Source of the DNA: Patescibacteria group bacterium
GTDB taxonomy: Bacteria; Patescibacteriota; Minisyncoccia; Moranbacterales; UBA1568
Length of the DNA: 51,090 nt
Direction of reading: 5' to 3'
Assembly: GCA_038062975.1 (NCBI GenBank)
Contig: JBBTWC010000017.1
Coordinates: forward strand, 1-51,090
Part shown: piece by piece, positions 9,108-46,671 of the stretch
How positions within the stretch are numbered: position 1 is the stretch's first letter
Layout of the letters: the number at the start of each line of letters is the position of its first letter
Position numbers and translations under genes: made by a program
Notes under the pieces: generated by a model
Told to the model about the DNA's origin: nothing
What the model saw: the letters and a program-made list of their open reading frames with translations, nothing else
The model's database searches: none

Positions 9108-11933
9108 TTACGGAAGGTATTTAGCAGTAAAGCTTTTCTTACACGTTTTGAGTTTCAGTGGTGGCCCAGCAAAAACAAGTTCTCCTCCTTTTTCACCACC
9201 TTCAGGTCCAAGTTCCAGTACCCAATCGGAAGAAGCAATGACATCAATATTATGTTCTACCACGAGTACCGTATTTCCCTTGTCTACCAAGGCTTCCAGT
9301 ACTTCCAAGAGCCTGCGCACATCTTCAAAGTGCAAACCAATCGTTGGTTCATCAAGGATATAGAGCGTCTTGCCAGTTGATTTTCTCGCAAGCTCGGTCG
9401 CAAGCTTGATACGTTGAGCTTCACCACCAGAAAGATTCGTTGCACTCTGCCCCAGAACCAAGTATCCAAGACCCACTTCTTCAAGTACTCGAAGCTTCTC
9501 TTCAATCAGTGGTTGATCCAAGAAAAATCTCCGAGCATCGGTTACCGTCATTTGGAGTACCTGAGAAATATTCACTCCACGATACTCAATAGAGAGTGTC
9601 TTCGCATTGTAGCGAGTTCCCTGACAGACTTCACACGGCACATACACATCTGGTAACAGGTACATTTCAATCTTCTTCAGTCCCCCACCCTGACAAGCCT
9701 CGCACCGTCCACCACGCATATTAAAAGAAAAATGACTGGCAGAATATTTGTCACGCTCTGCCTCTGGAGTTTCAGCAAACAAATCACGAATAAGACTAAA
9801 GACACCCGTATAGGTTGCTGCATTAGATCGTGGTGTACGCCCAATCGGATCCTGCGTCACAGTAATCACTTTATCAATATTGGAAAGACCTTCAATTTTC
9901 TTGTGCTCCCCTGGTTCCGCTTTGGCATGATAAAAATGCTTCGAAAGAGCTCGCGAAAGAATATCGTGCACCAAAGATGATTTTCCTGATCCCGAAACAC
10001 CTGAGACAGCAACCAGCATTCCGAGGGGAATTTCTACATCAACGTTTTTCAAATTATGCTCTTTAGCACCTGTAATCTTGATCACTTCACCACTCATCTT
10101 GCGTGCCTTTTTCTTTTCAGAAACAGAACGTTTTCCAGAAAGGTACTGTCCCGTCAAAAGCTTGGACTTCATAAGTTCCGAAGAAGTACCCGCGAAAATA
10201 ACTTCGCCACCTTCCACGCCAGCACCCGGACCCATATCAATAACGTAGTCTGCTTTACGCATGATAGCCACATCGTGTTCTACGATCACGAGCGAATTGT
10301 TTCCAGCTCGCAAATCTTCCAATGCATGAATTAATTTTTCAGTATCACGACTATGCAGTCCTACCGAAGGCTCATCGAGAACATAAATAATACCCGAAAG
10401 ACCAGACTTCATCTGAACAGACAGTCGTATACGTTGAGCCTCTCCTCCCGAAAGCGTATCTGCTCCACGGCAAATCTCCAGATACCCAAGACCTACCTTT
10501 TCCACAGCCTGCAATCGTGTTTCCATTTCTCGAAACAAAGGCTCGATCATTTCACGATCTCCTTTTTTCAAAAGTGTATCACGCAATTTTGGAAGAGCGA
10601 GCAAAAGTTTTTCTACACTCTGAATAACCAAATCATTAATCGAAACATTTCCTACCTTTACCGCTAAACTTTCTGGCTTCAAACGTTTTCCAAGACAGGC
10701 TGGACACACCTGGGTCAGCATATAGGCCTCAATCTCTGCACGCAGGTGCTCAGACTTTGTTTCTTTATACTTGCGTTCCAACAAAGCGATCACTCCTGGG
10801 AAGTCACTACTTTTTTCATCTGTCTTTTGTGACAAGCTCTCATTTCCCTCTCCAAACAAAATAGCATCCAGCTGCTTCTTCGAAAGTTTCTTGATTGGAG
10901 TATCCAACGTAAAGCGCATTTTCTTTCCAAGCTCACGAAGCATCTGCATTGGTCCATTCCCATTGGATCGATCGCTATTCATTTTGCTCCACGGACGAAT
11001 AGCTCCTTCCGCGAGAGCCAGATTTTTATTGGGAATAACCAACACTGGGTCAAACTCAAGTGTCACTCCAAGACCAGAACACTTTTTACAAGCACCCTCT
11101 GGACTATTGAAAGAAAAATGACTTGGTGTCGGCTCTGGGAGACGAATATCGCAGTGTTCGCAGTGATATTCTTCGTTATAATCCCACTCTTCACCACTGC
11201 CATTAATCCGTAACGTGAGCGCTCCTTGTCCAACATGAAATGCGGTCTGCAAAGAATCCAAAATACGCTCTTTATCAGGACGATCTTTAGAAAGCACGAG
11301 GCGATCAACGACTACACCGAGCGTTTCATTTGGTTCATCACTCGCCCCAGAAAGTGCTTCTGCAATTGGTTGAATCTCGCCATTTAAAACAACTCGTGGA
11401 TAGCCCCAAGTGCTGATAAGTGAAAGAGCATCTTTTTCGGTCTTGCCGACTAACTGAGGATGATACGCAACAAACACAAGCGGAGTCTCATCAGGAAGCG
11501 TCAAAATTTCATCCAAGATTTGGCGCACTCCTTTGCGCGAAAGTGTTTCACCGCAATTCGGACAATGTGGAACACCAAGCTTGGCGTACAACACACGCAA
11601 GAAATCGTACACTTCAGTCATGGTGCCCACCGTTGAACGCGGACTACGTGATACGCTTTTCTGATCAATAGAAATAGCCGGGGAAAGATTGTGAATCGCA
11701 TCGACATCCGGCTTATCAAAACCATCAAGAAAATTGCGCGCATACGAAGAAAGCGACTCAACATAGCGCCGATTCGCTTCCGCAAAAAGAGTATCAAAAG
11801 CTAAAGATGATTTTCCTGATCCCGAGAGCCCGGTTATAACGACGAGGGAATTTCGTGGGATATCAACATCCACGTTTTTCAAATTGTTTACTCGTGCACC
11901 CCGAATTTCTATGACCGATTTTTTTTCTGGCAT
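9108..11933 (-). CDS. uvrA: Excinuclease ABC subunit A (full-length type with insertion domain)
   Basis: Motifs seen: [14 protein letters not shown], two Walker A sites ([20 protein letters not shown]), LSGGEAQR signatures, CxxC zinc modules. About 100 aa lie between CKKCSGLG and CPACLGKR. The ATG at MPEKK is preferred over the upstream GTG at 11984. Confidence 0.95.
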
Positions 11934-12036
11934 ACCCCGTAAAGCTCGTAAGAAAAAAGTAAACAGTTGTCTCCCAGCATACACCCTTTTTCAGCGACTG
12001 TAAATACAGAGGTATCTGTGGATAACCCAAGGGGTA

Positions 12037-13308
12037 TTATGCAGATAGAAATTCCTTCCCCCGACGCTTGCGATGGAACGTAATAGCAAAGCGATGCGCT
12101 TCATTGTTCGCCAAAAGGATCTCTCGCTTAAAACGTTCTCTGAGCGCCTCCGGACCAATGAGGCGTTCCGGTTGATGGCGTTCATTTTTCACCACACCAA
12201 TAATAGGAATGGTGAGTTCTGATCCCAAAAGCGCCTGTTCGGCCACACCAAACTGAAGTTTGGCACCATCCACCACAATAAGTTCTGGCAGTGTCCACTC
12301 CGGATGCTGCAACCGACGTTTCAAAATTTCATCGAGCGCAGAAAGATCATTACCATTATGTTCACCGCGCAGTTTAAACTGTCGATACTCACTCGGATTT
12401 GGTCGACCATTTTCTACTACCGTCATCACACCCACACTTGCTGATCCACCAAGATGCGCTACATCATAGGCTTCGATTCGATGTCGCGAGAGTTCACGAA
12501 TATCATCCTTAATAAGCGCCATATCCTGAATGTGCTGAATACCAAACAGTGTTCCTTTTATTTCAGAAGCCCGTTCAAAGTACTGTCCCTTCGCAGCTGC
12601 TTTCATCTCTTTTGTCAGCTGTCGTACCAATGCGCTCTTTCTTCCTTCAAAAAACAATCGGATATGATTAATAGAACGCGCATAGCCTTTAGCCGATACT
12701 TCCGCCATACACACCCCTGGACACAGTCCAATCTGCGCCGAAAAACAAGGTTTTGCTTTCGTCTTTTGTTTCTCGGATAACTCTTCGTATGGCGTACATT
12801 TATCCCGAAAAGGAAAGAGTTTCCGTACAATCTTGAGCGCTTCTTTCAGCCCGCTCCCCGAAGGAAACGGTCCATACATATACTTCACCGGAAATGAAAA
12901 CTTCCCCTGCTCAATATCTCTTCCCCGCACAATCAACACTCGAGGATAGGTTTCCTTTGTAATAACAATCTGATTGTAACTCTTGTCGTCTTTGGCATCA
13001 GAATTATGTATTGGTTGATGCTTCTTGATAAGCTCTGATTCCAACAAGAGAGCTTCCAATACGGAATCCGTTTTCCGGTATCCAATAAAAGTAATCTTTC
13101 CCATCATGAGCTCGATCTTGGGCCCACGAGTTGTTGCGATATCTTGGATAAAATAACTCTTCACTCGATCCCGAAGAGAGGTTGCCTTTCCGATATACAA
13201 AATACTTTTCTGTTCATCCAAGAAAAAATACACTCCCGGAGTTTCCGGCAATGGATTCTTTTTCAGAAATGATTTTAGGCTCACAGCCTTTTCCCACTCA
13301 AACGCCAT
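12037..13308 (-). CDS. uvrC: Excinuclease ABC subunit C, short form lacking the C-terminal (HhH)2 domain
   Basis: It has a GIY-YIG N-terminus (PGVYFFLD..ILYIGKA), a UVR segment (QYFERASEIKGTL) and an endonuclease core (IEAYDVAHLGG ... EAHRFAITFHRKRR). The protein stops at 423 aa. Confidence 0.9.
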   Translation of the reverse strand: MAFEWEKAVSLKSFLKKNPLPETPGVYFFLDEQKSILYIGKATSLRDRVKSYFIQDIATTRGPKIELMMGKITFIGYRKTDSVLEALLLESELIKKHQPIHNSDAKDDKSYNQIVITKETYPRVLIVRGRDIEQGKFSFPVKYMYGPFPSGSGLKEALKIVRKLFPFRDKCTPYEELSEKQKTKAKPCFSAQIGLCPGVCMAEVSAKGYARSINHIRLFFEGRKSALVRQLTKEMKAAAKGQYFERASEIKGTLFGIQHIQDMALIKDDIRELSRHRIEAYDVAHLGGSASVGVMTVVENGRPNPSEYRQFKLRGEHNGNDLSALDEILKRRLQHPEWTLPELIVVDGAKLQFGVAEQALLGSELTIPIIGVVKNERHQPERLIGPEALRERFKREILLANNEAHRFAITFHRKRRGKEFLSA

Positions 13309-13369
13309 ATCAATAACTCTTTTGATACTTCTATTGAATCAGCTCAGGTACGGAAATGCAATTATACTC

Positions 13370-13398
13370 TTGACTTTTATGGTAAAAAGATGTATAAT
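13370..13398 (+). promoter_or_regulatory. Near-consensus sigma70 promoter for the 102-aa ORF
   Basis: TTGACT (13370-13375), 17 nt spacer, TATAAT (13393-13398). A GGAGG RBS lies at 13443-13447, 5 nt before the ATG at 13453. Confidence 0.7.
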
Positions 13399-13452
13399 GC
13401 ATATTAAGTACCTTGACTACCTGTTTTCATCCCCCAGCCTAGGGAGGGCTTT

Positions 13453-13761
13453 ATGCCCCACAAAGAGCTTGAACTTGTCTGCGAAGAAGTTGTCGCGAGC
13501 CTCCGTTCCGATACGAACGAAACGTTCGACTTCTACACCCTCTTCGCGAAAGTCGCCCACAGTCATGGCATCTTCCATGGCACCGACAGACAGCGCTACA
13601 ACTCCTACTTCAGACAGGCCAAGAAAGCCTGTAAAAAGGCTCTCGGCGATCTACGGATGAAGCGAGCGCTCATCAAGAAAGAGCAACGCCCAGCATTCTC
13701 CATCTCTCCTGAGCGGGCCTACGCCATCAATCAGCGCATGAGCGGCGAACGGGACGACTAA
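13453..13761 (+). CDS. Orphan hypothetical protein (102 aa) in GC-rich islet 1
   Basis: It has its own promoter, RBS and terminator. I recognised no motif. It is one of only two plausible + strand genes before 48 kb. Confidence 0.55.
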   Translation: MPHKELELVCEEVVASLRSDTNETFDFYTLFAKVAHSHGIFHGTDRQRYNSYFRQAKKACKKALGDLRMKRALIKKEQRPAFSISPERAYAINQRMSGERDD

Positions 13762-13790
13762 GAACAACAAGGTCCAAAGGACCAAAGGAA

Positions 13791-13830
13791 AAGCGTCGAC
13801 GCGAACACGTGTCTGGCGCTTTTTTCTTTT
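13791..13830 (+). terminator. Rho-independent terminator of the 102-aa ORF
   Basis: AAGCGTCGAC ... GTCTGGCGCTT forms a roughly 10-bp stem with one bulge and two G-U pairs. It is followed by TTTTTCTTTT. Confidence 0.6.
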
Positions 13831-13966
13831 GTAATAAAAAAGGAGATAGGCTACATTGAGCTTCTCTCCAGTTGCGCCAATTTTCGGCGTCTTTCTCAAA
13901 TCTATACTGCTCTTCTTCTGAGAGCTTTCTTATTCTTTCCCCCTCGAAATGTTCGAGGTGTCGGCG

Positions 13967-14374
13967 CTAGTGCCGGAGCCTCTTCTTCGGAGGCAGGCTT
14001 TCGGCCGACTCTTTCACTGCCCGCTTATAGGCCGTCTTGACCAACTGGTCACGGGCGTTCTTGCGGTAGGTCTTGAAGGTGATCCGGCCGTTGTGCGCCT
14101 GAGCGGCGGCGAGGTCGGAAAGGAACGACGAGTCCACCGGAAAGACCTTGTGCGGCTTGCCGTAGTTGTCGAGGAGCCGAACACGGTGGTCCGTCTCTTC
14201 GTCATCCTTGGCGGCCGGCAGGTTCTTCTTGATCCACTCGTAGGCGGCATCGCTCGTCCCCTTGACGAACCAGTTGTCGAGCGCCGAGACCAGACTCAGG
14301 TGAGCCCGGGGACGACGATCTTCTTGGCTCGGGCCACGATCACGCACCCGCAGAGCGGAATTTTGTACCTGCAT
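13967..14374 (-). CDS. Orphan hypothetical protein (135 aa), paralog of 14570..14956
   Basis: AAGGGG lies upstream of the ATG. It shares NWFVKGTSDAAYEWIKKNL / AWFVVPQSDAATIWLRSHL and AAAQAHNGRITFKTYRKN / CRAHQAHAEIRFEIFREE with its neighbour. Differences at conserved residues are synonymous (GAT/GAC, GCC/GCT). Confidence 0.6.
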   Translation of the reverse strand: MQVQNSALRVRDRGPSQEDRRPRAHLSLVSALDNWFVKGTSDAAYEWIKKNLPAAKDDEETDHRVRLLDNYGKPHKVFPVDSSFLSDLAAAQAHNGRITFKTYRKNARDQLVKTAYKRAVKESAESLPPKKRLRH

Positions 14375-14434
14375 TTCTAATAACCCCTTGTTTTGCTTGC
14401 AGAGAATACAAAAAGCGTCCGAAAACGCCTCCTG

Positions 14435-14463
14435 AGAATACCCGAAAGAGTACCCTCTGTCAA
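14435..14463 (-). promoter_or_regulatory. Candidate sigma70 promoter for 13967..14374
   Basis: Minus strand reads TTGACA (14463-14458), 17 nt spacer, TATTCT (14440-14435). Confidence 0.5.
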
Positions 14464-14475
14464 TGTTTTATGGCC

Positions 14476-14517
14476 TAATAAAAGGTTCGAGGGAGAGGCG
14501 CCGTTGGCACCCCTCCC
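14476..14517 (-). terminator. Rho-independent terminator of 14570..14956
   Basis: 12-bp GC-rich stem (GGGAGGGGTGCC / GGCGCCTCTCCC on the minus strand, two G-U pairs) with a 3-nt loop. It is followed by TCGAACCTTTTATT. Confidence 0.6.
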
Positions 14518-14569
14518 TTCTGTCGCTTCCTCTTTCGCTGATCTTTGTCAGCTTTCTTCTTGTGGTCAA

Positions 14570-14956
14570 CTACTGGTTGCAGCCGCAGGCCTGCTGGTAG
14601 GACTTCGGAATGATCGCTCCTCCGGGATGTTCTTCCCGAAAGATTTCGAACCGAATTTCTGCGTGAGCCTGATGAGCCCTGCAGAGTTCGGTCATACGCG
14701 AATCCATCAGACGATAGGCCCGATATTCTCCGCCAGCCTTGTCCCTCTTGGTAACCCGGATATCTTCGCCGGGCTTTTCCTTCAGGTGACTACGCAGCCA
14801 AATAGTAGCGGCGTCGCTCTGCGGAACGACGAACCACGCGAGCTCGGGCGCAACCGCGAGCTTGGCCCGTTTCTGCTTAGCCTTGGATCCAGGAGCCCCC
14901 TGGGTGCGAAGCGAAGCAGTGTTTGTACCACCCTTACGCGCAACTTGGAATTTCAT
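14570..14956 (-). CDS. Orphan hypothetical protein (128 aa from MKFQV), paralog of 13967..14374
   Basis: A GAGGG RBS lies 5 nt before the ATG at 14956. The track ORF extends to a TTG at 14977. The protein ends in ...QQACGCNQ. The 10-nt TATTAGAAAT found upstream of its paralog also occurs here. Confidence 0.6.
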   Translation of the reverse strand: MKFQVARKGGTNTASLRTQGAPGSKAKQKRAKLAVAPELAWFVVPQSDAATIWLRSHLKEKPGEDIRVTKRDKAGGEYRAYRLMDSRMTELCRAHQAHAEIRFEIFREEHPGGAIIPKSYQQACGCNQ

Positions 14957-15003
14957 TTTGCCCTCGCTTATTTCCAAGATTTCTAATACGCATTCCGGAT
15001 GGA

Positions 15004-15034
15004 GTTCCTAGACACTTCACACCTGTCTAGGAAC
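15004..15034. repeat. Perfect 11-bp inverted repeat (hairpin) in the GC-rich non-coding stretch
   Basis: GTTCCTAGACA, then cttcacacc, then TGTCTAGGAAC. Other hairpins lie at 15099-15131 (10 of 11 bp), 15160-15187 and 15232-15250. Confidence 0.85.
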
Positions 15035-15289
15035 CCCGGGTGTTAAGAGCGCCACAGTGCGCGATCATGCGCCAGGCACTCAAAAGGGAAAAGTCTTTCT
15101 TACCTCAGGGTCCCTCGAGTCCTCAGGTAAGCGCGTGCCGTTTTCGACATCGCGAAGAATTGATGGCGAAGATCAGACTTCGATCAATCACCGTGATACC
15201 CATCACAAACCCCTATTCTAAGTTACTCCGAGAAGCCAAACTTCGGCTTCACCCCTATCCTACTCCCAGAGACAAAACTGTCAAACCTC

Positions 15290-16372
15290 TTATTTTCCAA
15301 ACCGACTATGAAAAAAGCTACTCGTACGTTCCATAAAAATTGGCCACTGCGAAGCAAATTCGTGTCCTTCTCCTTGGTACACAAAGTATTCAACATTCTT
15401 TCCTTTAGACTGCAGAAGCTCATAGGTTTCTTGTGACCATTCGATCGGTACATCCTCATCTCGTGTGCCATGATGAATCTGAACCGCTTGATTAATACGA
15501 TCTACATACGCAGTCGCAGAAATTGCGTTCCAGAAATCCGGATTTTCTTCAGGAGCACCGTAGATCCGTCGTATTTGCTCTTCTGTCTCCGGTCGCTCTT
15601 TCATCCAGCGCTCATAGCTGTCCCGGTAATCCATGCTCACAGGCGCATACAACACAAAACCTTTTACCAAATCCGGAAAAGTCACCATAATTGTCTCAGC
15701 AATTCCACCTCCCATAGAGTGTCCCATGATTCCAATATTTTCTTTATCTATATATTCAAGCGAAGAACCTCGAAGAGCATAGATAGCGTTTACAACGTCT
15801 TCTACATATCCGAGCCTCTCTTCGAGAGGGTCTTCATCGGTCTTGGTTGATTGCGCATGATTACGATAGTCGGGATGAAAAACAACGAAACCTTGTTTCG
15901 CAAGATAATCCTGCTCCCTACGCAGCCCTCGGCCGTTGGTATAAATGCTTGTATCAATATGTCCATGAGCAAGAATAAGTACAGGAAACCCTCCCTCTGG
16001 AGGCGTACTTGTCGGCACATTCATAATCCCAGAAAGAGTAAGTTCTCCACCTGTATAGGTAACGTAGTAACGAGTATAGGATGTATTTTTCTCCTGAACC
16101 TCACCAAATACAAGGTCGCGCCCGTCAAACTTCTTTACCGCTAGAAGTCGAAGGGTAAATGACGGAACCTCACCATTCTTCATCGCTCCAGTGATAGTAT
16201 CTTCTGTCTTTTCCGAAACTTCATCCTTCACTGTCTGCTTCCCTATATCTAAGTTTTTATCAAAATTCATCTCACTTTTCGGAGTTTTCTGATCTCGCAT
16301 CAGAAATAATCCAACTGAAAGGAAAACGAAAAGGAACAATACTCCAACAATGATTGTCTGTTGCTTATTCAT
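15290..16372 (-). CDS. Alpha/beta hydrolase, S9/dienelactone-hydrolase-like serine hydrolase with N-terminal anchor
   Basis: Nucleophile elbow GIMGHSMGGG, later HGTRDEDVP and GEGHEF. The N-terminus has a TM/signal segment. Confidence 0.8.
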   Translation of the reverse strand: MNKQQTIIVGVLFLFVFLSVGLFLMRDQKTPKSEMNFDKNLDIGKQTVKDEVSEKTEDTITGAMKNGEVPSFTLRLLAVKKFDGRDLVFGEVQEKNTSYTRYYVTYTGGELTLSGIMNVPTSTPPEGGFPVLILAHGHIDTSIYTNGRGLRREQDYLAKQGFVVFHPDYRNHAQSTKTDEDPLEERLGYVEDVVNAIYALRGSSLEYIDKENIGIMGHSMGGGIAETIMVTFPDLVKGFVLYAPVSMDYRDSYERWMKERPETEEQIRRIYGAPEENPDFWNAISATAYVDRINQAVQIHHGTRDEDVPIEWSQETYELLQSKGKNVEYFVYQGEGHEFASQWPIFMERTSSFFHSRFGK

Positions 16373-16393
16373 ATATCCTTTATACAGGAATAT

Positions 16394-16798
16394 TTATCCA
16401 GTAAGTTTTGCAATCCATTTCACACCAAGAGACACGAGCGCTGTGGCTGATGTTCCCCAGAAAATATCTACTAAAAGAAAACGAAGGGTCCACCCAGAAA
16501 GCGTTGCCATATTGGTCAAGTCATACACCGCATACGAAACAAATCCCAAGAGCGCTCCGTACAAAAGAGCCTGTGGCAATGAGTGAGCTTGTGGTAAAAC
16601 AAAGATCATCACCCCAATCGCCAGAACCACATACGTGAGGACTCCAGCCCACAAACGTATATTCCAGGAACCATCAGGGTGGAGACGAAGGATTGATCCA
16701 AGCTCTGCCTTAAAAAAACTCCCCATAAAACTAAACCAAAAAAGATCGAGGAGGATAAAAAGTACAAAGGCTGCTAAAAAAAGAATCATCGTTTTCAT
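16394..16798 (-). CDS. DUF2177-like integral membrane protein
   Basis: The start is taken at the internal MKTMILFLAAFVLFILLDLFWF. There are four hydrophobic helices, and YAVYDLTN is typical of the family as I recall it. Confidence 0.6.
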   Translation of the reverse strand: MKTMILFLAAFVLFILLDLFWFSFMGSFFKAELGSILRLHPDGSWNIRLWAGVLTYVVLAIGVMIFVLPQAHSLPQALLYGALLGFVSYAVYDLTNMATLSGWTLRFLLVDIFWGTSATALVSLGVKWIAKLTG

Positions 16799-16808
16799 AG
16801 TCTTATAT

Positions 16809-17078
16809 TTACTTTTTACGCTTCTGATACTTCTTCCACCATGATGGATATTCACCAAAGCGAAAACAAAGAAGATCAAACAAAGCCAGTATCGTAATCA
16901 TCCAAGGAGCAAGCGCGATAAGAGTGTCCGTTGCAGAATGTGACCGACTTTCAAAAAAGAAAAAGAGTGAGACCAAAAGAGCGCCGAGTAAAAACGTCGC
17001 GATCACACCGGCAAGCGACGCCGGATAATAGCAAGCAAAATAGTTCCAAAAACGCAGTGGTCGAAACCAGTATTTCAT
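16809..17078 (-). CDS. Small membrane protein
   Basis: The start is taken at MKYWFRP. AAAGGAA lies 7 nt upstream. A TATAAT box at 17097-17102 (minus) overlaps the upstream in-frame ATG, which argues against the longer form. Confidence 0.55.
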   Translation of the reverse strand: MKYWFRPLRFWNYFACYYPASLAGVIATFLLGALLVSLFFFFESRSHSATDTLIALAPWMITILALFDLLCFRFGEYPSWWKKYQKRKK

Positions 17079-17504: not shown

Positions 17505-17909
17505 TTACGCCTTGTCGTGGTACAAGACGTGATTGGAATACACAGCCGGGAAAAAGAAGATCTCGTGCTCCCAGATCAGCGAATCTTCGGCGGTGCAGTC
17601 CTGACTCGTAAAGCCATAACGGCCGATCAGGATGAGGAAGTCTTCGAGGTTCAACCTCTCTACATCACCAGACGGCATTCTCGCGAACTGATCGGTCACG
17701 AAAACAGTCGGCGGGTCGCCTTGAGCGATACTCCGCGCGAGCACATCTTCGAACTCGACCAGATTGGTGCAGAAATCGATTTGCGTGTCTGGAAGCCTTT
17801 CATCGACCTCAACCAGGAAATGCATCCTGGCCTCTCCATAGCAACCGCGACCGGTATGCCAATGCGGGAGACCAAACAAGAACAACATACGTACCCTCTT
17901 CGTCATCAA
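17505..17909 (-). CDS. Orphan hypothetical protein (134 aa), member A of a 3-member paralog family
   Basis: A GAGGGAAGG RBS lies upstream. It shares RMLFLFGLPHW and GDPPTVFVTDQF with 21008..21397 and 21431..21907. The sequence is GC-rich (32/60 G+C at 17641-17700). Confidence 0.6.
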   Translation of the reverse strand: MMTKRVRMLFLFGLPHWHTGRGCYGEARMHFLVEVDERLPDTQIDFCTNLVEFEDVLARSIAQGDPPTVFVTDQFARMPSGDVERLNLEDFLILIGRYGFTSQDCTAEDSLIWEHEIFFFPAVYSNHVLYHDKA

Positions 17910-21007: not shown

Positions 21008-21397
21008 TCACGAGTAGAGTGGGTCGAGCGGATGCCGGACTTTATATTTGTAAACGGTGTAACCAGAAAGCGTGTCCAGACCGATCGGAAGAACTTCTTG
21101 TTCTATAAACTCAAATCCGTATCCGCCATGCATCATCCGCTTGAAGTCATCCGAAAAGATCGGCTGAACCTCGCCTTCTCGCCACGCATGGCCATCGGAA
21201 ACGAAGACTTGCGGAGGTTCTCCGAGACAAATCATTTGCGTAAGCATGTTCATAAAGCCAAAAAACTCAGGAGTGGCCTTAACATCTGATCCGTGAGGCA
21301 GGCTTTGGTGCATGACGCTCGCAAAAGCCTCTCTCGCCTCGTCACTCCTCCACAACGGCAGGCCGAGGAGGCAAAAAGCGCGAACAGGGATTATCAT
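21008..21397 (-). CDS. Orphan hypothetical protein (129 aa), paralog family member B
   Basis: A strong RBS, AAGGAGGAGGTGAG, lies directly upstream. Family motifs are RAFCLLGLPLW and GEPPQVFVSDGH. Confidence 0.65.
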   Translation of the reverse strand: MIIPVRAFCLLGLPLWRSDEAREAFASVMHQSLPHGSDVKATPEFFGFMNMLTQMICLGEPPQVFVSDGHAWREGEVQPIFSDDFKRMMHGGYGFEFIEQEVLPIGLDTLSGYTVYKYKVRHPLDPLYS

Positions 21398-21430: not shown

Positions 21431-21907
21431 TTAGACTCTCTGCCCAGTCAGCCCACGCCGAAGGCGCGAGAAAAATCCAGGCCCTGTTGGTTTGCAGTAC
21501 GCCGTGTTCGGAACAACGGCAAAGTAGCCAAGTGATCCAAACATGAAAAAGTCGGGAAAGGACCTCTCTCCGGGTTGCACGGCGATTTGCATTTCCTGAA
21601 GCGCCAGAATCTCCGTCTCTTCGAAAATGAGCTCGAGAGTCTTGCGCGACAGGATACTCGAATAGTCGTAGTCAAACAGCACAAAGTCCGTCACGAAAAA
21701 TTTCGGGATAATGCCTTGGGTAATATCTTCCGCTAGGACCGAGTCGATCGCCGGCATCTGCCGAACGAAAACCGGGGCGATACTTTGCCCGAGGTGCTTC
21801 TCCAGAAATCCACGGAGTTGAATCCGTAGCTCCCGGCTCTGCCATGCATCATCCCCCAAAAGGCAGATGACGCGGAGTGGCGCTTGGCCACTTTGTACCG
21901 TTTCCAT
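21431..21907 (-). CDS. Orphan hypothetical protein (158 aa), paralog family member C
   Basis: GGAGAAAGG lies upstream. Family motifs are RVICLLGDDAW and GIIPKFFVTDFV. It lies 33 nt upstream of member B on the same strand. Confidence 0.6.
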   Translation of the reverse strand: METVQSGQAPLRVICLLGDDAWQSRELRIQLRGFLEKHLGQSIAPVFVRQMPAIDSVLAEDITQGIIPKFFVTDFVLFDYDYSSILSRKTLELIFEETEILALQEMQIAVQPGERSFPDFFMFGSLGYFAVVPNTAYCKPTGPGFFSRLRRGLTGQRV

Positions 21908-22304: not shown

Positions 22305-24629
22305 TTACTTATTTTGACTTACTTGCGGGGCTTTTTGATAAAGATTTTTCTGAAAAGAAAAGAATGTTGAACGAATTTCCTCTACGCTACCCAAGGACTG
22401 CTCTGCATTTGCAATAGCATGATATTTCAGATTAAGAAGTACCGGGAGCTTCTCTTCTCCTAACTCTTCTACACCCTTCTCTTTATACTTTGACAATATG
22501 AAATCCAAAAACTCCTTATTTTCATCATCAGCTCCTTCAAAAATCTTTTCTTTAGTACTTTCTACTCTTTCTTCTCTTGTAACAGTAGGCGTCAAGAAAG
22601 AAATGTACGAAAGCACATCCAAGAGATCGCACTGCTCTGCATCAATAACTTTCTGCAATTGCTCCAAATCATTCTTCTGATATCCAGCATCAGCCAATTT
22701 ATCAAATAATATCTGCCTCTCTACCGGGTCTGACCATATTTTTCGCAGCTCTTCTTCAGAGCTAAAAAACTCTGGCATCACACCTATTAAGTTATCCATA
22801 AACTCCTGAATAGACAGAGGCTTACCATCCGCACTCCAAAAAGAGGTTGAAATCATGTGCTGAATTTCTCGTTCTTTTCCGTCTCGTAGTTTAATCTTCA
22901 GTCTTTGCGGTCGCTCGACCGGATCCTCTGAAGGTACAGAAATTGGCTTATCAACAATGCCCATAGGTTTGACAGCCTTAGGTTCTCCGGCAACTTCAAT
23001 CACCTCTGCTGCATCACCATCCCATTCTGGATCAGCAAAGTGATGATAAGCATCCACAAAGTCATAAATGGTAAAATATTCCTTCCCGTCAAACAGTCTT
23101 GTGCCGCGCCCAATAATCTGCTTGAACTCAATCATGGAATTCACCAGGCGCATCAGAACTATATTCCGCACATTCCTTGCATCTACACCCGTAGAGAGCT
23201 TCTGCGAAGTTGTTAAAATAGTTGGGATAGTCTTTTCGTTGTCCTGAAATTCTCGGAGGTATTCCTCTCCCCTCGCCCCATCGTTTGCTGTCACCCTTAC
23301 ACAGTATTTAGGATTTTTACTTTTACTCATCTGATTAACCAGATCTCGTACCAATGCTGCGTGCCCCTGATTAGCGCAGAAAATAATTGTCTTTTCATCT
23401 TGGTTAATATCATCCAATACAATACGAACGCGCTTAGCCTCTCGTTCTGTTATGACAATCGTGCGATTAAAATCACCTTCCTCATATATTTTTCCTTCTT
23501 CTACCTCTCCTTCTATAATCTGATCATCGCTAGTATACACATAATCATCCAGTGTAGTCTGAATACGCTTCACTTTGAATGGAGTCAGGAACCCATCATT
23601 GACGCCTTGCTTGAGAGAATAAGTATAGACTGGCTCACCAAAATATTTGTAAGTATCTACATTATCTTGCCGCTTTGGAGTGGCTGTGAGACCGAGCTGT
23701 ACCGCTGGTGAGAAATACTCAAGGATTTTCCGCCAATTCCCCTCATCATTGGCCCCTCCGCGATGACACTCGTCTATAATAATCAGATCAAAAAAATCAG
23801 CTGGATATTCACCAAAATACGGCGAACCGTTAGTCCCGCTCATAAAAGTTTGGAAGATGGTGAAAAATACACTCCCGCCCATAGGTACGCTACCAGTCCT
23901 ACGGATATCAAGTGGGTTGATACGCACTAGAGCATCCTGTGGAAATGAGGAAAATGAATTGAAAGCCTGGTCAGCCAGGATATTGCGGTCAGCCAGGAAA
24001 AGTATTCTCGGTCGACGGCTCCCATCTCGATTCAGATTCCAACGTGAATGAAAGAGCTTCCAAACTATCTGAAAAGCCACTGCCGTCTTGCCGGTCCCCG
24101 TCGCCATAGTAAGGAGTATCCGATCTTTTTCTTCTGCCACAGCAGAAAGGACATTATTGATAGCAATTTCCTGATAGTAACGCTTACCTATCTCCCCTTC
24201 GGGCATGACAGAGGCAAATTTCTCCTTCCATTCATTCTGGTCTGAGTAGGTCTTGCGCCACAGCTCCTCAGGCGTTGGAAATTTCTCTATATCACTCTCC
24301 TTGCCACTTTTCATGGACATCTCGTAGATATCTCTGCCATTAGTAGCATAGGTATAGTCAATCTGCAGTTTTTCGGCATAGGCCTTTGCCTGCATCACTC
24401 CCTCACTCACCAGCAACCCCTCCTGTTTAGCCTCTATCACGGCCATCTTCTGGTTCTTATAGACAAGAATATAGTCAGCTATTTCTGGTCGTGAGCGAAT
24501 CCCGCCTGGATTGATCTTGCCATCAGTAATACGAAACTCCCGAAGAACCTTGGATTCCTCGACTTCTCCCCAACCACTAGCCTTGAGCTTAGGGTCTATG
24601 TATTCTGCTCGTGTTTCTGCTTCATTCAT
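22305..24629 (-). CDS. hsdR: Type I restriction enzyme R subunit (EcoEI-like short HsdR)
   Basis: HsdR_N start MNEAETRAEYIDPKLKASGWG. Helicase motifs are MATGTGKTAVAF, IIDECHRG and TATPKR. The C-terminal tail is helical. Confidence 0.93.
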   Translation of the reverse strand: MNEAETRAEYIDPKLKASGWGEVEESKVLREFRITDGKINPGGIRSRPEIADYILVYKNQKMAVIEAKQEGLLVSEGVMQAKAYAEKLQIDYTYATNGRDIYEMSMKSGKESDIEKFPTPEELWRKTYSDQNEWKEKFASVMPEGEIGKRYYQEIAINNVLSAVAEEKDRILLTMATGTGKTAVAFQIVWKLFHSRWNLNRDGSRRPRILFLADRNILADQAFNSFSSFPQDALVRINPLDIRRTGSVPMGGSVFFTIFQTFMSGTNGSPYFGEYPADFFDLIIIDECHRGGANDEGNWRKILEYFSPAVQLGLTATPKRQDNVDTYKYFGEPVYTYSLKQGVNDGFLTPFKVKRIQTTLDDYVYTSDDQIIEGEVEEGKIYEEGDFNRTIVITEREAKRVRIVLDDINQDEKTIIFCANQGHAALVRDLVNQMSKSKNPKYCVRVTANDGARGEEYLREFQDNEKTIPTILTTSQKLSTGVDARNVRNIVLMRLVNSMIEFKQIIGRGTRLFDGKEYFTIYDFVDAYHHFADPEWDGDAAEVIEVAGEPKAVKPMGIVDKPISVPSEDPVERPQRLKIKLRDGKEREIQHMISTSFWSADGKPLSIQEFMDNLIGVMPEFFSSEEELRKIWSDPVERQILFDKLADAGYQKNDLEQLQKVIDAEQCDLLDVLSYISFLTPTVTREERVESTKEKIFEGADDENKEFLDFILSKYKEKGVEELGEEKLPVLLNLKYHAIANAEQSLGSVEEIRSTFFSFQKNLYQKAPQVSQNK

Positions 24630-24641
24630 AGGTTTATCATA

Positions 24642-25778
24642 TTACAGTTCTCCAGCAAAAGCTTTTTGGAGAACGGACTTCTTGAGCTCTTCTAAATCTA
24701 CCAATTTTTGTTTGTAGATAGCTTCTAGATTTTTAGTTTCAGCGGATAAAGCGTCCAGCTTTTTGACAATGACTTTTTGATCAGGCACTGACGGAAAAGA
24801 AATTCTAATACTTCTGATGATAGGCATATTCAGACCACGCCTATCATTACCCGCATCTCCAGTTAATTTCCTTATCTCTTGATAACGACTATTTAGAGCT
24901 TGATAGAGATATTCTGGTAGCAGCTCTTCTATTTTTTTAGGATAAATACTAACTAAAGACTGATTACAGGTAGCTTTCACTCTTAACAAAGCTACTGATC
25001 CTCTTGTTTTTCCTTGACCATTAAGAGCGATTAAAACAGAATTAATCGGAAGAAATTTAGCATTAGAACTTTCATATCCCTCTTTTGTAATTCTCCCTTC
25101 ACAATCAAATATCTCTTTCTTGTGAATATCTCCAGAAACAAGCCATTTGATCTTTCCATTTTGAAAATATTCCAAATGACCCCTACTAGGAGTACCTCCT
25201 GTCATAAGATCACACACTTCACCTATAGACTTAGAACTCCAATCTTTTTTTGAATCCAGAAAAATACTTTGTGCATACGACTCAAAAAGCTCGCGAGAAT
25301 TTTTTATTTGCTGTTCAGTAATTCTCTTCAACTCTTCAATCTGAGCAAACTTCTCATCCAAAATCTTTACGGTCCTTTTTTGTTCTGCAAGTAGTGGAAT
25401 TGGAACTTGAATCTCTTTCAACAATCTATAATGTCTTGCATAACCCAACTGCTTAAAAGTGACACTCTGTAGAAAGTAGAAGAAAAATTTCGAATCAATA
25501 CCATCTTTTGTTTGTAATATCTTTACTCCATCTGCACCTAAAACAAAATCAAAATCTATATACTTAAGGATCTGCGTGTGATCACCGAAAATTATCACTG
25601 GTTTTTTCACCAAGAATAAGTCTCTCTTATCATTCCAATAGCCATTTATAGTCCCTATCTCCTGTGAGACTACTGGGAATTCTCCCGATTCCAAAAAGTT
25701 CTTACGCTGAATCTTATTCGTGTAAGTTAGTTTAGTCAAACAGTCCTCAAAATCTCTTAATTGCCAGCTTGTTCTCAT
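24642..25778 (-). CDS. hsdS: Type I R-M specificity subunit (two target-recognition domains)
   Basis: Two repeated TRD halves are separated by helical spacers (LAEQKRTVKILDEKFAQIEEL and the C-terminal KKLDALSAETKNLEAIYKQKLVDLEELKKSVLQKAF). Confidence 0.88.
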   Translation of the reverse strand: MRTSWQLRDFEDCLTKLTYTNKIQRKNFLESGEFPVVSQEIGTINGYWNDKRDLFLVKKPVIIFGDHTQILKYIDFDFVLGADGVKILQTKDGIDSKFFFYFLQSVTFKQLGYARHYRLLKEIQVPIPLLAEQKRTVKILDEKFAQIEELKRITEQQIKNSRELFESYAQSIFLDSKKDWSSKSIGEVCDLMTGGTPSRGHLEYFQNGKIKWLVSGDIHKKEIFDCEGRITKEGYESSNAKFLPINSVLIALNGQGKTRGSVALLRVKATCNQSLVSIYPKKIEELLPEYLYQALNSRYQEIRKLTGDAGNDRRGLNMPIIRSIRISFPSVPDQKVIVKKLDALSAETKNLEAIYKQKLVDLEELKKSVLQKAFAGEL

Positions 25779-46071: not shown

Positions 46072-46671
46072 TTAGTGCGCCAGTTGGTTCCGGCGACGGA
46101 AAATGAATTGGGTGTCCGACGGGAACTCGTGGTGCGCGTCGAGAAGCGTGCCACACAGCCAACGATCGCCCTGGAAGCACGAAATGCGAGGCATCACGTA
46201 CTTCCCGTTTGAAAGAAGGAGCGGCTGCGTTGCCACGATGAAGTTTTCCCCTTCCGGTTGGTCTTCATAGTTCTGACGCAGGATCGGCGACGCATCCCCC
46301 GGGCAGAACTCGAACGAAAACTTATCCCAGGCTCGATCGAAAATCTGATCGATCCGAGCCGTGAAGACAAATCCGAGATCCCACACGGATACCCTTTCGA
46401 AGCTGGCCACCTCTCCTTCCGGGGAGATGACAAATTCCGAATGATGAAACATGTGGCGTGCCCAGTAATTGACACGGTTACCCGAGCGAAGAAGCACGGG
46501 TTCGAACTGGCTCGGCTCTTGGATAAGGCCAAGCTCAGCGGACTTCCATGACCTTTGCACAAGTTGGAGCGAAGGACGCAAAGCGCGTTCCCCTTCGCGG
46601 TTATGGAACAAAGAACTGGTTGGTTCCCGAGATTGTTCAAGCGGGAGCCCTTCGAGCATGGATTGCGCCAT
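46072..46671 (-). CDS. Orphan hypothetical protein (199 aa) in GC-rich islet 4
   Basis: It has a GAGGAG RBS, its own consensus promoter and its own terminator. G+C is 34/60 at 46261-46320. I recognised no motif. Confidence 0.6.
   Translation of the reverse strand: MAQSMLEGLPLEQSREPTSSLFHNREGERALRPSLQLVQRSWKSAELGLIQEPSQFEPVLLRSGNRVNYWARHMFHHSEFVISPEGEVASFERVSVWDLGFVFTARIDQIFDRAWDKFSFEFCPGDASPILRQNYEDQPEGENFIVATQPLLLSNGKYVMPRISCFQGDRWLCGTLLDAHHEFPSDTQFIFRRRNQLAH

What the first reader, a model, noticed from the sequence alone, without database searches (positions are those of the whole stretch)
13309..15289. 2-kb GC-rich islet upstream of uvrC with three autonomous transcription units, including a tandem paralog pair
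**Composition and context**
- Between the hydrolase gene and uvrC the composition jumps. I hand-counted 37/60 G+C at 14041-14100.
- Several overlapping ORFs appear on both strands, as expected when GC is high.

**The three supported ORFs, each with its own signals**
- 13453..13761 (+): TTGACT-17-TATAAT promoter, GGAGG RBS and a terminator.
- 13967..14374 (-): TTGACA-17-TATTCT promoter.
- 14570..14956 (-): GAGGG RBS and a 12-bp GC-rich terminator.

**Evidence that the two minus-strand ORFs are coding paralogs**
- They share WFV..SDAA..W and AH..I.F blocks, with synonymous codon differences.
- They share the 10-nt TATTAGAAAT just upstream, so the duplication included the 5' region.
- One ends in a Cys-Gly-Cys motif (ACGCNQ).

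**Not found**
- No integrase, transposase or flanking direct repeat was seen. The way the islet was acquired is unclear.
Basis: partly seen in the sequence, partly recalled or inferred. Interest (0 to 1): 0.65.

Follow-up and report, generated by a model that had tools for sequence, protein, structure and literature searches.

The report
Orphan small-gene cassette beside uvrC
The GC-rich 2-kb stretch holds three real small genes from two protein families seen only in Moranbacteria; they sit at a conserved spot next to the DNA-repair gene uvrC, use the codon style of a GC-richer relative, and have no known function.

Summary
GC rises from about 0.44 to 0.53-0.64 across roughly 13430-15220. Third-codon-position GC is 0.62-0.79, against 0.37-0.42 in uvrA, uvrC and the hydrolase gene. 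All three ORFs are real genes with near-consensus promoters and hairpin terminators, and orf2 and orf3 are true paralogs (BLASTP E=5e-10).

It is not a random foreign insertion. The genome is a Moranbacteria (Patescibacteria/CPR) genome. orf1 (family B) and orf2/orf3 (family A) belong to two orphan families found only in Moranbacteria-like contigs. A related 55%-GC Moranbacteria genome has the same layout: S9 hydrolase, A, B, B, uvrC, uvrA. A B or weakly B-like gene is read divergently from uvrC in six of the seven genomes compared.

Here the cassette's codon usage matches that GC-rich relative (r=0.67-0.79) and not its host (r=-0.20). I infer lateral replacement at a conserved locus, which needs no integrase.

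All members are basic (pI 9.4-10.4). Family A models as a beta-alpha-beta-beta-alpha-beta(-beta) core with a disordered basic tail, and family B as a helical bundle. No match was found in any library, so nucleic-acid binding is only an inference.

New finding: orf3 has a roughly 295-nt strongly folded leader with its own promoter.

Moderate interest.

The parts
13370..13398 (+). Promoter of orf1 (family B): TTGACT-17-TATAAT.
   Evidence: It matches 11 of 12 consensus positions. The same TTGAC(T/A)-17-TATAAT promoter, with a similar A-rich ...AAAAG(A/G)T spacer, stands in front of B genes in six loci, although the proteins are only 13-41% identical. The -35 hexamer is TTGACA in L002.
13453..13761 (+). 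orf1: 102-aa family B protein. It is basic (pI 9.4), is predicted as a helical bundle with a disordered tail, and is read divergently from uvrC.
   Evidence: Homologues are in L002, L003, L018 (two copies), L019 (two copies) and L024, with HMM E-values from 1e-23 to 1e-41. GC3 is 0.69. The AF2 model has helices at 3-19, 27-37 and 46-78, with core pLDDT 75-83. The exact protein is found on 9 Hainich groundwater contigs.
13783..13830 (+). Intrinsic terminator of orf1, lying between the convergent orf1 and orf2. It is much weaker when read on the minus strand.
   Evidence: It folds at -24.9 kcal/mol, z -4.9, on the plus strand, followed by UUUUUUCUUUU. On the minus strand it folds at -14.5 kcal/mol, z -1.2. 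It gives a sub-threshold resemblance to Rfam ctRNA_p42d (29.4 bits against a gathering score of 50), which I read as terminator likeness only.
13967..14374 (-). orf2: 135-aa family A protein. It has a disordered basic N-terminal tail and a beta-alpha-beta-beta-alpha-beta-beta core.
   Evidence: It is a paralog of orf3. Its closest relative is the A gene in L018 (35% identity, E=3e-20). GC3 is 0.79. The AF2 model has mean pLDDT 72.8, with the core at 80-90.
14409..14434 (-). Hairpin followed by a U-run, placed directly after the orf2 promoter. It may be an attenuator or a 5' stabiliser.
   Evidence: The terminator-like scan found it. It folds at -13.6 kcal/mol, z -2.8. Its function was not tested.
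14435..14463 (-). Promoter of orf2: TTGACA-17-TATTCT.
   Evidence: It matches 10 of 12 consensus positions. It is identical in strain L017.
14490..14518 (-). GC-rich 13-bp hairpin downstream of orf3, terminator-like but with a weak U-tract.
   Evidence: It folds at -26.1 kcal/mol, z -3.0.
14570..14956 (-). orf3: 128-aa family A protein (GAGGG ribosome-binding site, ATG at 14956). An in-frame TTG at 14977 is an alternative start.
   Evidence: The ORF is listed. It is a paralog of orf2. GC3 is 0.62. It is 98% identical to strain L017 at the DNA level, with pN/pS 0.31 (4 synonymous and 4 non-synonymous changes).
14957..15252 (-). Roughly 295-nt highly structured leader of orf3, or possibly a separate RNA. 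No terminator separates it from orf3.
   Evidence: Its minimum free energy is -115.8 kcal/mol, z -4.7, with 0 of 100 shuffles as stable. Against strain L017, 11 substitutions fall in 188 paired positions and 18 in 115 unpaired positions (p=0.002). Eight of 10 changed pairs stay paired, including one A-U to G-C double change. The G-U intermediates fit only the minus strand. It has no Rfam match.
15123..15203 (-). Possible 26-codon upstream ORF inside the leader (MGITVIDRSLIFAINSSRCRKRHALT), with AGGGG 7 nt upstream.
   Evidence: Reading frame and stop codon are kept in L017, with one synonymous and one non-synonymous change. This is the best-conserved piece of the leader. It is unproven and could simply reflect RNA structure.
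15257..15284 (-). Promoter at the outer edge of the cassette: TTGACA-16-TAGGAT.
   Evidence: It matches 10 of 12 consensus positions. Homology with strain L017, which lacks the hydrolase gene, starts exactly at this TTTGACA.

Best explanation
**What it is**
- The stretch is a cassette of three small genes specific to Moranbacteria.
- The genes belong to two orphan protein families. I call them A (orf2 and orf3) and B (orf1).
- The cassette occupies a conserved slot between an S9 hydrolase gene and uvrC-uvrA.
- B is read divergently from uvrC, and the A genes converge on B.

**Shown**
- The genes are real.
- The families exist in a handful of related genomes, and copy number varies. This genome has A twice and B once. 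L018 and L019 have A once and B twice. L002 and L003 have B only.
- The slot is shared with a related genome.
- Each gene has its own near-consensus sigma-70-type promoter. orf1 and orf3 have clear hairpin terminators. For orf2 the only candidate is the orf1 hairpin read on the minus strand, where it folds weakly.
- orf3 is preceded by a roughly 295-nt strongly folded leader.

**Inferred: how it got here**
- The copies in this 44%-GC genome came by lateral transfer from a Moranbacterium of about 55-60% GC.
- The transfer replaced the resident version by recombination in or near the conserved flanks.
- That would explain why there is no integrase, transposase or direct repeat.

**Inferred, weaker: what the products do**
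- The products are small, abundant, basic nucleic-acid-binding proteins.
- Family A has a ferredoxin- or RRM-like alpha/beta core with a disordered Lys/Arg tail. Family B is a helical bundle with a basic tail.
- The orf3 leader may be a cis-regulatory RNA, possibly bound by its own product.
For: **Organism**
- UvrC is 60-71% identical to Moraniibacteriota MAGs.

**The genes are real**
- A and B homologues have conserved motifs.
- HMM E-values against related loci run from 1e-23 to 1e-55.
- Within each gene the third codon position has the highest GC.
- orf3 gives pN/pS 0.31 between strains.

**The families are rare**
- An exhaustive HMM scan of 1.84 billion cluster representatives found only three other true A clusters.
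- The profile search for B found 7 proteins, all from Moranbacteria-like or unnamed metagenome contigs.

**Synteny**
- L019 and L020 read hydrolase(+), A(+), B(-), B(-), uvrC(+), uvrA(+).
- L019 UvrC is 68.6% and its hydrolase 62.5% identical to the window's.
- B lies divergently upstream of uvrC in L002 and L003.
- Weak B-like ORFs occupy the same position in L001 and L005.

**Foreign composition**
- GC3 is 0.62-0.79 in the cassette and 0.37-0.42 in the flanking genes.
- Codon-usage (RSCU) correlation of the cassette is -0.20 with 15 host genes, 0.67 with L019 core genes and 0.79 with the L019 cassette.
- In L019, L002 and L003 the homologues match their own genome's composition.

**Transcription signals**
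- Promoters and terminators are documented.
- The B promoter is conserved in six loci.

**Protein properties**
- All 12 family members examined have pI 9.4-10.4.

**Leader**

**Stability in the population**
- The same arrangement recurs at 99-100% identity in contigs from Hainich wells H14, H41 and H43.
Against: **Against lateral transfer as stated**
- No donor is known. The nearest relatives of orf1 and orf2 (in L018) are only 40% and 35% identical.
- Transfer is therefore inferred from composition alone.
- If it was ancient, the GC should have drifted towards the host's.

**Against a nucleic-acid-binding role**
- This role rests only on charge, disorder and a generic fold.
- Foldseek found nothing below E=0.08 in PDB or BFVD.
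- Profile searches of Pfam, PHROGs, PADLOC, NCBIfam and PDB sequences were empty.

**Against a settled leader structure**
- Only two leader sequences exist, so the covariation evidence is thin. The shuffle control is uninformative with two rows.
- No long leader precedes the A genes in L018, L019 or L024.

**Other gaps**
- No expression data could be consulted.
Confidence: 0.55

Rival explanations
1. The stretch is a foreign islet newly inserted between the hydrolase gene and uvrC, which would otherwise be adjacent. It came from an unrelated donor such as a phage, plasmid or other mobile element.
For: - The composition jump is sharp and its edges lie in intergenic DNA.
- Codon usage is unlike the host's.
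- The neighbourhood is plastic. Strain L017 lacks the hydrolase gene next to the cassette. L003 and L005 carry IS or transposase ORFs between B and uvrC.
Against: - Both families are found at the same locus in other Moranbacteria.
- They were found nowhere else among 1.84 billion cluster representatives.
- Searches of phage genomes, IMG/VR, PHROGs (one 20.7-bit match to a family of unknown function in the low-complexity tail of orf1) and PADLOC gave no significant match. Plasmid records were not searched.
- There is no integrase, tRNA gene or direct repeat.
Confidence: 0.1
2. There was no transfer. The cassette is vertically inherited and its high GC is kept by selection or a local mutational bias. 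Possible causes are very high expression with a preference for G/C-ending codons, a need for stable mRNA structure, or GC-biased gene conversion between copies.
For: - The three genes have unusually strong promoters.
- Other GC-rich orphan genes in the same window behave alike. These are the three paralogs at 17505-17909, 21008-21397 and 21431-21907, and the ORF at 46072-46671.
- The ORF at 46072-46671 has the same AAAAAGGTGTATAAT promoter style as the B genes.
- In L001 and L005 the weakly B-like genes are also somewhat GC-richer than uvrC (GC3 0.61-0.67 against 0.51).
- The locus itself is ancestral.
Against: - A GC3 of 0.79 in a genome at about 0.40 is far beyond normal translational selection.
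- B homologues in the low-GC genomes L002 and L003 are not clearly enriched (GC3 0.54 and 0.43 against 0.47 and 0.43 for uvrC).
- The non-coding leader and spacers inside the cassette are also GC-enriched (0.45-0.50, against 0.31-0.49, mostly 0.36-0.45, in other spacers).
- Codon usage matches a real relative's genome-wide usage (r=0.67).
Confidence: 0.2
3. A and B form a selfish two-component module, either toxin-antitoxin-like or a defence or anti-defence pair. Being selfish, it spreads laterally among Moranbacteria and varies in copy number.
For: - A was never seen without B next to it. The four loci with readable flanks are the window, L018, L019 and L024.
- Copy number varies and the composition here is foreign.
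- The genes are small, fast-evolving and confined to one lineage.
- The top, non-significant Foldseek hits for A include GhoS and Cas2, which are ferredoxin-like RNases.
Against: - The genes converge and have separate promoters and a terminator between them, so they are not an operon.
- B occurs alone in L002 and L003.
- B always sits at one fixed chromosomal position beside uvrC, which is not how mobile modules behave.
- There is no PADLOC, Pfam or PHROGs match.
- The Foldseek hits have E of 0.1 or worse and TM-scores of about 0.25.
Confidence: 0.1
4. The ORFs are artefacts of high GC, and the region is non-coding or a decayed pseudogene field.
For: Several long ORFs overlap on both strands, as expected in GC-rich DNA.
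Against: - The chosen frames have homologues with conserved motifs in other genomes.
- The paralogy is significant.
- GC is highest at the third codon position in the chosen frames.
- Ribosome-binding sites, promoters and terminators fit these frames.
- AF2 gives confident cores.
Confidence: 0.02

Closest known systems
Compositionally atypical genomic islets acquired by lateral transfer and homologous (allelic or xenologous) replacement
   Same: The stretch has sharp GC and codon-usage discontinuities that end in intergenic DNA. Its codon usage resembles a related, GC-richer lineage.
   Different: It has no integrase, tRNA gene or direct repeats. The locus itself is conserved in relatives, so this is a replacement at an existing slot and not an insertion. 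No donor has been identified.
Lineage-specific 'hypothetical protein' families of Patescibacteria/CPR. Members are deposited as, for example, NCBI AAB615_03425 (Patescibacteria group bacterium) and A2808_02375 (Candidatus Moranbacteria RIFCSPHIGHO2_01_FULL).
   Same: orf2 is 99% identical to AAB615_03425. The L019 B2 protein is A2808_02375. Both are named only 'hypothetical protein'.
   Different: No database groups these proteins into families, links A with B, or notes their fixed position beside uvrC. No Pfam, NCBIfam, PHROGs or PADLOC model matches them.
Small ferredoxin-like or RRM-like alpha/beta proteins (GhoS, Cas2, qRRM, PII)
   Same: The AF2 model of orf2 has a beta-alpha-beta-beta-alpha-beta(-beta) order of elements. 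These folds head the Foldseek list.
   Different: All the matches are non-significant (E of 0.1 or worse, TM-scores 0.23-0.32, rmsd 6-12 Angstrom). There is no sequence similarity and no catalytic motif. This is a likeness of topology only.
Long structured 5' leaders that autoregulate RNA-binding proteins (ribosomal-protein leaders) or act as riboswitches
   Same: A roughly 295-nt leader with a very stable fold lies between a strong promoter and the ribosome-binding site of a small basic protein gene. Strain-level substitutions spare its stems.
   Different: It matches no Rfam family. Only two sequences are known. No ligand or protein partner is known. The A genes in other genomes have short leaders.

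Membership tests
Horizontally acquired genomic island | Composition or codon usage deviates from the host genome. | tested here: met
   GC3 is 0.62-0.79 in the cassette and 0.37-0.42 in the flanking genes. The codon-usage (RSCU) correlation with host genes is -0.20.
Horizontally acquired genomic island | Mobility genes (integrase, transposase) or an insertion site at a tRNA gene with flanking direct repeats. | tested here: not met
   No such ORF is present. The window has no tRNA gene. There are no flanking direct repeats.
Horizontally acquired genomic island | Absent from the same locus in related genomes. | tested here: not met
   Homologous A and B genes lie between the hydrolase gene and uvrC in L019 and L020. 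B lies upstream of uvrC in L002 and L003.
Tandem paralog pair (gene duplication) | Statistically significant protein similarity between adjacent genes on the same strand. | tested here: met
   BLASTP gives E=5e-10 and 27% identity over 113 residues. Both match the family A profile at E of 1e-44 or better.
Tandem paralog pair (gene duplication) | The duplication is recent, so that flanking non-coding DNA is still shared. | tested here: not met
   The paralogs are as diverged from each other as from homologues in other genomes. Only a 10-mer is shared, and it is disrupted in L017.
Type II toxin-antitoxin or defence module | Two adjacent genes that are co-transcribed. | tested here: not met
   A and B converge, and have separate promoters and a terminator between them.
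Type II toxin-antitoxin or defence module | Homology to a known toxin, antitoxin or defence protein family. | tested here: not met
   PADLOC, Pfam, NCBIfam and PHROGs gave no significant match.
Independent sigma-70 transcription units | A -35/-10 promoter upstream and an intrinsic terminator downstream of each gene. | tested here: inconclusive
   Consensus promoter sites are present for all three genes and exceed the shuffle expectation (5 against 1.6). Hairpins follow orf1 and orf3. orf2 has no convincing terminator of its own, because the orf1 hairpin read on the minus strand folds at only -14.5 kcal/mol, z -1.2. Transcription start and end points cannot be tested with these tools.
Known RNA families (Rfam 15), for the orf3 leader | A covariance-model score at or above the family's gathering threshold. 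| tested here: not met
   There were no matches at the gathering threshold. With the E-value threshold, only chance-level matches appeared in the leader.
Ferredoxin-like or RRM-like fold (family A) | Structural superposition on a solved member with a significant score. | tested here: inconclusive
   The AF2 topology is compatible. The best Foldseek E-value is 0.1 with a TM-score of about 0.25.
Phage or plasmid cargo gene | Homologues in phage or plasmid records. | tested here: not met
   tblastn against 50,697 phage records gave no match for orf2 and only E of about 0.4-0.6 for orf1. IMG/VR gave none. BFVD gave none. Plasmid records were not searched.

The most novel reading that the evidence does not exclude
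Families A and B would be a previously unrecognised Moranbacteria-specific system tied to the uvrC-uvrA repair locus.
- B would be a fast-evolving, strongly expressed small DNA-binding protein that always sits back-to-back with the uvrC promoter and may regulate it.
- A would be an RRM-like RNA-binding partner.
- One A copy (orf3) would autoregulate through a new roughly 295-nt structured leader RNA.
- The whole cassette would be exchanged laterally between Moranbacteria of very different GC content.
Probability: 0.12. Interest if true: 0.6.

Novelty: new member of a known kind. Interest (0 to 1): 0.38.

Why it matters
**If the reading is right, it shows three things**
- CPR/Patescibacteria genomes exchange small orphan-gene cassettes among relatives by replacement at conserved loci. 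No mobile-element machinery is needed, and the result is a sharp compositional islet.
- Two new protein families now have a fixed genomic address beside uvrC-uvrA, with strong and unusually conserved promoters. That makes them sensible first targets among the many 'hypothetical' CPR proteins.
- The orf3 leader is a candidate new cis-regulatory RNA.

**Why this is not high-impact on present evidence**
- The function is unknown.
- The families are tiny.
- The phenomenon, an atypical-composition islet of hypothetical genes, is a familiar one.

Tried and rejected
**Library searches for the three proteins and the family alignments, all empty or insignificant**
- Pfam, PHROGs, PADLOC and NCBIfam.
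- The phrog_36250 match of orf1 (E=0.0012, 20.7 bits) covers only the low-complexity C-terminal tail of a family of unknown function. I set it aside.

**Structure route**
- AF2 models were made for A and B.
- Foldseek against PDB and BFVD gave nothing below E=0.08.
- PDB sequence-profile searches gave only chance hits.

**Widening the families**
- The word-indexed search found only strain variants of A.
- The same search found only the window's own protein for orf1.
- The exhaustive profile search added three A clusters, plus three repeat-protein false positives (P0006, P0007, P0009), which I discarded.
- A pattern scan of JGI metagenomes for the leader found nothing.
- Scans for family B found nothing in JGI metagenomes or IMG/VR.

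**Rfam**
- Nothing reached a gathering score.
- The 29-bit ctRNA_p42d match at 13787-13832 is the orf1 terminator hairpin, so I do not count it as a ctRNA.

**Pseudogene remnants**
- Six-frame profile searches for A, B or C in the three non-coding spacers found nothing better than E=0.04.

**Family C**
- A 160-175-aa protein sits beside B, or beside A and B, in L001, L005 and L024. It is absent from this window.

**Statistics and literature**
- The shuffle control for the leader structure is uninformative with two sequences. I used a placement permutation instead.
- A literature search for Moranbacteria, Hainich and genomic islands found nothing relevant.

Full report
**1. What is in the sequence**

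Gene layout around the finding:

| Feature | Coordinates | Strand | Source |
|---|---|---|---|
| uvrA | 9108-11984 | - | |
| uvrC, short 423-aa form (GIY-YIG, UVR, UvrC RNase H domains) | 12037-13308 | - | |
| orf1 | 13453-13761 | + | |
| orf2 | 13967-14374 | - | |
| orf3 | 14570-14956 | - | |
| non-coding segment (333 nt) | 14957-15289 | | |
| S9/alpha-beta hydrolase gene | 15290-16372 | - | |
| DUF2177 membrane-protein gene | 16394-16879 | - | |

UvrC is 60-71% identical to proteins of Moraniibacteriota/Moranbacteria MAGs. The window is therefore a Patescibacteria (CPR) genome of about 44% GC.

**2.

- GC is 0.52-0.57 in the 500-nt windows 13501-15000. At 120-nt resolution it is elevated from about 13430 to 15220, with dips at the regulatory spacers.
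- The anomaly is in synonymous sites. GC3 is 0.69, 0.79 and 0.62 for orf1, orf2 and orf3. It is 0.37-0.42 for uvrA, uvrC, the hydrolase gene and the membrane-protein gene.
- A third promoter-like site, TTGACA-16-TAGGAT at 15284-15257 (-), was not named.
- The orf1 terminator is strong (-24.9 kcal/mol, z -4.9).
- The hairpin after orf3 has a 13-bp stem and a weak U-tract.
- orf2 and orf3 are paralogs (E=5e-10, 27% identity).
- TATTAGAAAT occurs only twice in the window, once upstream of each paralog.
- No tRNA gene, mobility gene or flanking repeat was found.

**3. The genes are real, and they form two orphan families**

*Searches that found nothing*
- Pfam, PHROGs, PADLOC and NCBIfam have nothing for any of the three proteins.

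*Family A (orf2, orf3)*
- A profile of orf2 and orf3 was scored against 1.84 billion cluster representatives.
- Besides strain variants, it found only three true relatives. P0004 is 158 aa (its likely true start gives 119 aa), P0005 is 123 aa and P0008 is 130 aa.
- Three other hits were repeat proteins and were discarded.

*Family B (orf1)*
- Homologues are in L002, L003, L018 (two copies), L019 (two copies) and L024, plus four near-identical Logan proteins.
- Profile searches of all six-frame ORFs in the fetched loci give E-values from 1e-23 to 1e-55 for these homologues.
- They give nothing for the overlapping antisense ORFs.

*Other support for coding*
- Between strains, orf3 has 4 synonymous and 4 non-synonymous changes, giving pN/pS 0.31.

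**4. The locus is conserved, so this is not a simple insertion**

- P0005 lies in a Moranbacteria genome of about 55% GC (RIFCSPHIGHO2_01_FULL lineage; L019-L023).
- Its layout is S9 hydrolase(+), A(+), B(-), B(-), uvrC(+), uvrA(+). That is the window's layout with A once and B twice.
- This genome is as close to the window as any other. Its UvrC is 68.6% identical, and its hydrolase, at 62.5%, is the closest found.
- L018 has A, B, B. L024 has a third small family (C), then A, then B.
- L002 and L003 have B alone, divergently upstream of uvrC.
- L001 and L005 have C plus a weakly B-like ORF in the same position. In L005 an IS30-like transposase gene lies between that ORF and uvrC.
- L003 has an integrase-like fragment between B and uvrC.
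- In short, a B or weakly B-like gene back-to-back with uvrC is seen in six of the seven genomes compared. L004 has only an undetected small ORF in that position. A and C are accessory, and copy numbers vary.

**5. Why it is GC-rich here**

- In L019 the cassette has the same composition as its genome (GC3 about 0.7-0.8 throughout). In L002 and L003, B is at those genomes' normal level.
- Only in this window is the cassette out of line with its host.
- Its relative synonymous codon usage correlates at -0.20 with 15 host genes. It correlates at +0.67 with L019 core genes and +0.79 with the L019 cassette.
- The spacers and the leader inside the cassette are also somewhat GC-enriched (0.45-0.50).
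- The simplest reading is that this genome's version was replaced by one from a GC-richer Moranbacterium. Recombination would have occurred in or near the conserved flanks.
- That accounts for the clean edges and the absence of mobility genes.
- The donor is unsampled. The closest relatives, in L018, are only 35-40% identical.
- The main rival is that high GC is maintained by selection or a local bias. That rival gains some support from other GC-rich orphan genes elsewhere in the window.

**6. The paralogs are old**

- orf2 and orf3 are 27-28% identical. That is no closer than either is to homologues in other genomes (22-35%).
- The shared 10-mer therefore cannot be a neutral relic of the duplication.
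- In orf2 it abuts the start codon. In orf3 it lies 22 nt upstream of the ATG.
- In strain L017 the orf2 copy has lost 2 nt of it.
- It is either chance (about 0.26 occurrences expected window-wide) or a short functional motif.

**7. What the proteins look like**

- All twelve family members examined are basic (pI 9.4-10.4).
- The AF2 model of orf2 used a 5-sequence alignment and has mean pLDDT 72.8, with the core at 80-90.
- It has a disordered Lys/Arg/Gly-rich N-terminal 30 residues and a beta-alpha-beta-beta-alpha-beta-beta core.
- The top Foldseek matches are ferredoxin-like proteins (GhoS, qRRM, Cas2, PII). All are at E of 0.1 or worse with TM-scores of about 0.25, so this is a likeness of topology only.
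- BFVD gave nothing.
- The orf1 model (pLDDT 65.5, core 75-83) is a helical bundle with a disordered basic tail and has no structural neighbour.
- Nucleic-acid binding is thus an inference from charge, disorder and fold class. It is not shown.

**8.

*(a) The B promoter is more conserved than the B protein*
- A TTGAC(T/A)-17-TATAAT promoter with a similar A-rich spacer (...AAAAG(A/G)T before the -10) aligns across six loci, mostly with CTC before the -35.
- An AGTACCTT element follows the -10 in the window, L018 and L019.
- The proteins in these loci are only 13-41% identical.

*(b) The 333 nt upstream of orf3 are not empty*
- A 10-of-12 promoter sits at their outer edge.
- The 303 nt from there to the orf3 start (14950-15252) fold at -115.8 kcal/mol, z -4.7.
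- Strain L017 is 91% identical in the leader, against 98% in the orf3 coding sequence.
- Its substitutions avoid the stems predicted from the window sequence alone: 11 fall in 188 paired positions and 18 in 115 unpaired positions, p=0.002.
- Eight of 10 altered pairs remain paired, including one A-U to G-C double change.
- The G-U intermediates fit only the minus strand.
- No Rfam family matches.
- A 26-codon upstream ORF (15203-15123) with a Shine-Dalgarno-like AGGGG is conserved in L017.
- A genes in other genomes have short leaders, so this leader is specific to orf3.

*(c) orf2 has a hairpin plus U-run directly after its promoter*
- It lies at 14434-14409 and may act as an attenuator.

**9. 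Population context**

- Contigs from Hainich groundwater wells H14, H41 and H43 carry the same uvrC-orf1-orf2 arrangement at 99-100% identity.
- L017 is about 90-94% identical to the window. In it the DUF2177 gene runs straight into the cassette at the leader promoter, and the hydrolase gene is absent.
- The cassette's right edge therefore coincides with a strain-level rearrangement point.

**10. Verdict**

Three autonomous genes and a true paralog pair are supported. It is not a de novo foreign insertion, and the duplication did not recently carry its 5' region along.
- The best explanation is a Moranbacteria-specific orphan-gene cassette at a conserved slot beside uvrC, present here as a laterally replaced high-GC allele. 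It encodes small basic, probably nucleic-acid-binding proteins, and one of them has a structured leader.
- The function remains unproven.
- Interest is moderate (0.38).
- On novelty, this is a new member of a known kind: a compositionally atypical islet of lineage-specific hypothetical genes.

Noticed in passing
window 17505-17909 (-), 21008-21397 (-), 21431-21907 (-): A second family of three GC-rich orphan paralogs (134, 129 and 158 aa; 27-34% identical). They share R..CLLG..W and PP.VFV(T/S)D motifs and have no Pfam match. GC is 0.50-0.54 in a 44% genome. GC-rich orphan paralog islets therefore recur in this genome.
   Followed up: partly
window 46072-46671 (-) and promoter 46827-46799 (-): Another GC-rich (0.54) orphan ORF of 199 aa with no Pfam match. 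It is preceded by TTGACA-17-TATAAT, whose spacer and -10 region (AAAAAGGTGTATAAT) match the style of the family B promoters.
   Followed up: partly
L017 1-320 against window 15285-16393: A related Hainich strain lacks the S9 hydrolase gene entirely. The stop codon of its DUF2177 gene lies 8 nt from the TTTGACA of the orf3-leader promoter. This is a clean 1.1-kb presence/absence difference exactly at the cassette edge.
   Followed up: partly
window 15123-15203 (-): A possible 26-codon upstream ORF (MGITVIDRSLIFAINSSRCRKRHALT) lies inside the orf3 leader. It is conserved in L017 with one synonymous and one non-synonymous change.
   Followed up: partly
L001 8903-9406, L005 7695-8186, L024 1143-1670: A third small orphan family (C, 163-175 aa, with conserved G(V/F)D.(L/Q)GP(Y/F) and (I/V)S.EEL motifs) sits next to B, or next to A and B, upstream of uvrC in other Moranbacteria. 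It is absent from this window.
   Followed up: partly
L005 8863-9909; L003 1616-2002: An IS30-like transposase gene (L005) and an integrase-like fragment (L003) are inserted between the B gene and uvrC. The B-uvrC spacer therefore appears to attract insertions repeatedly.
   Followed up: no
window 24642-26839: A low-GC stretch (0.30-0.35; GC3 0.23-0.29) holds two ORFs directly downstream of a 774-aa type I restriction HsdR-like gene (22305-24629). They are probably variable restriction-modification specificity or methylase genes.
   Followed up: no
window 13309-13400: The uvrC and orf1 promoters appear to be back-to-back. A minus-strand TATAAT (about 13360-13365) abuts the plus-strand CTCTTGACT -35 element of orf1. 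Parts of the uvrC 5' region (ATTCAAGCAG.TTCAC, AAGCAAT) are shared with L002 and L024.
   Followed up: no
L002 13-567, L003 27-803, L024 1-345: A second UvrA-like gene (54-57% identical to the C-terminal part of the window's UvrA in L002 and L003) lies just beyond the B gene in other Moranbacteria. The wider neighbourhood there is uvrA2 ... B | uvrC uvrA.
   Followed up: no
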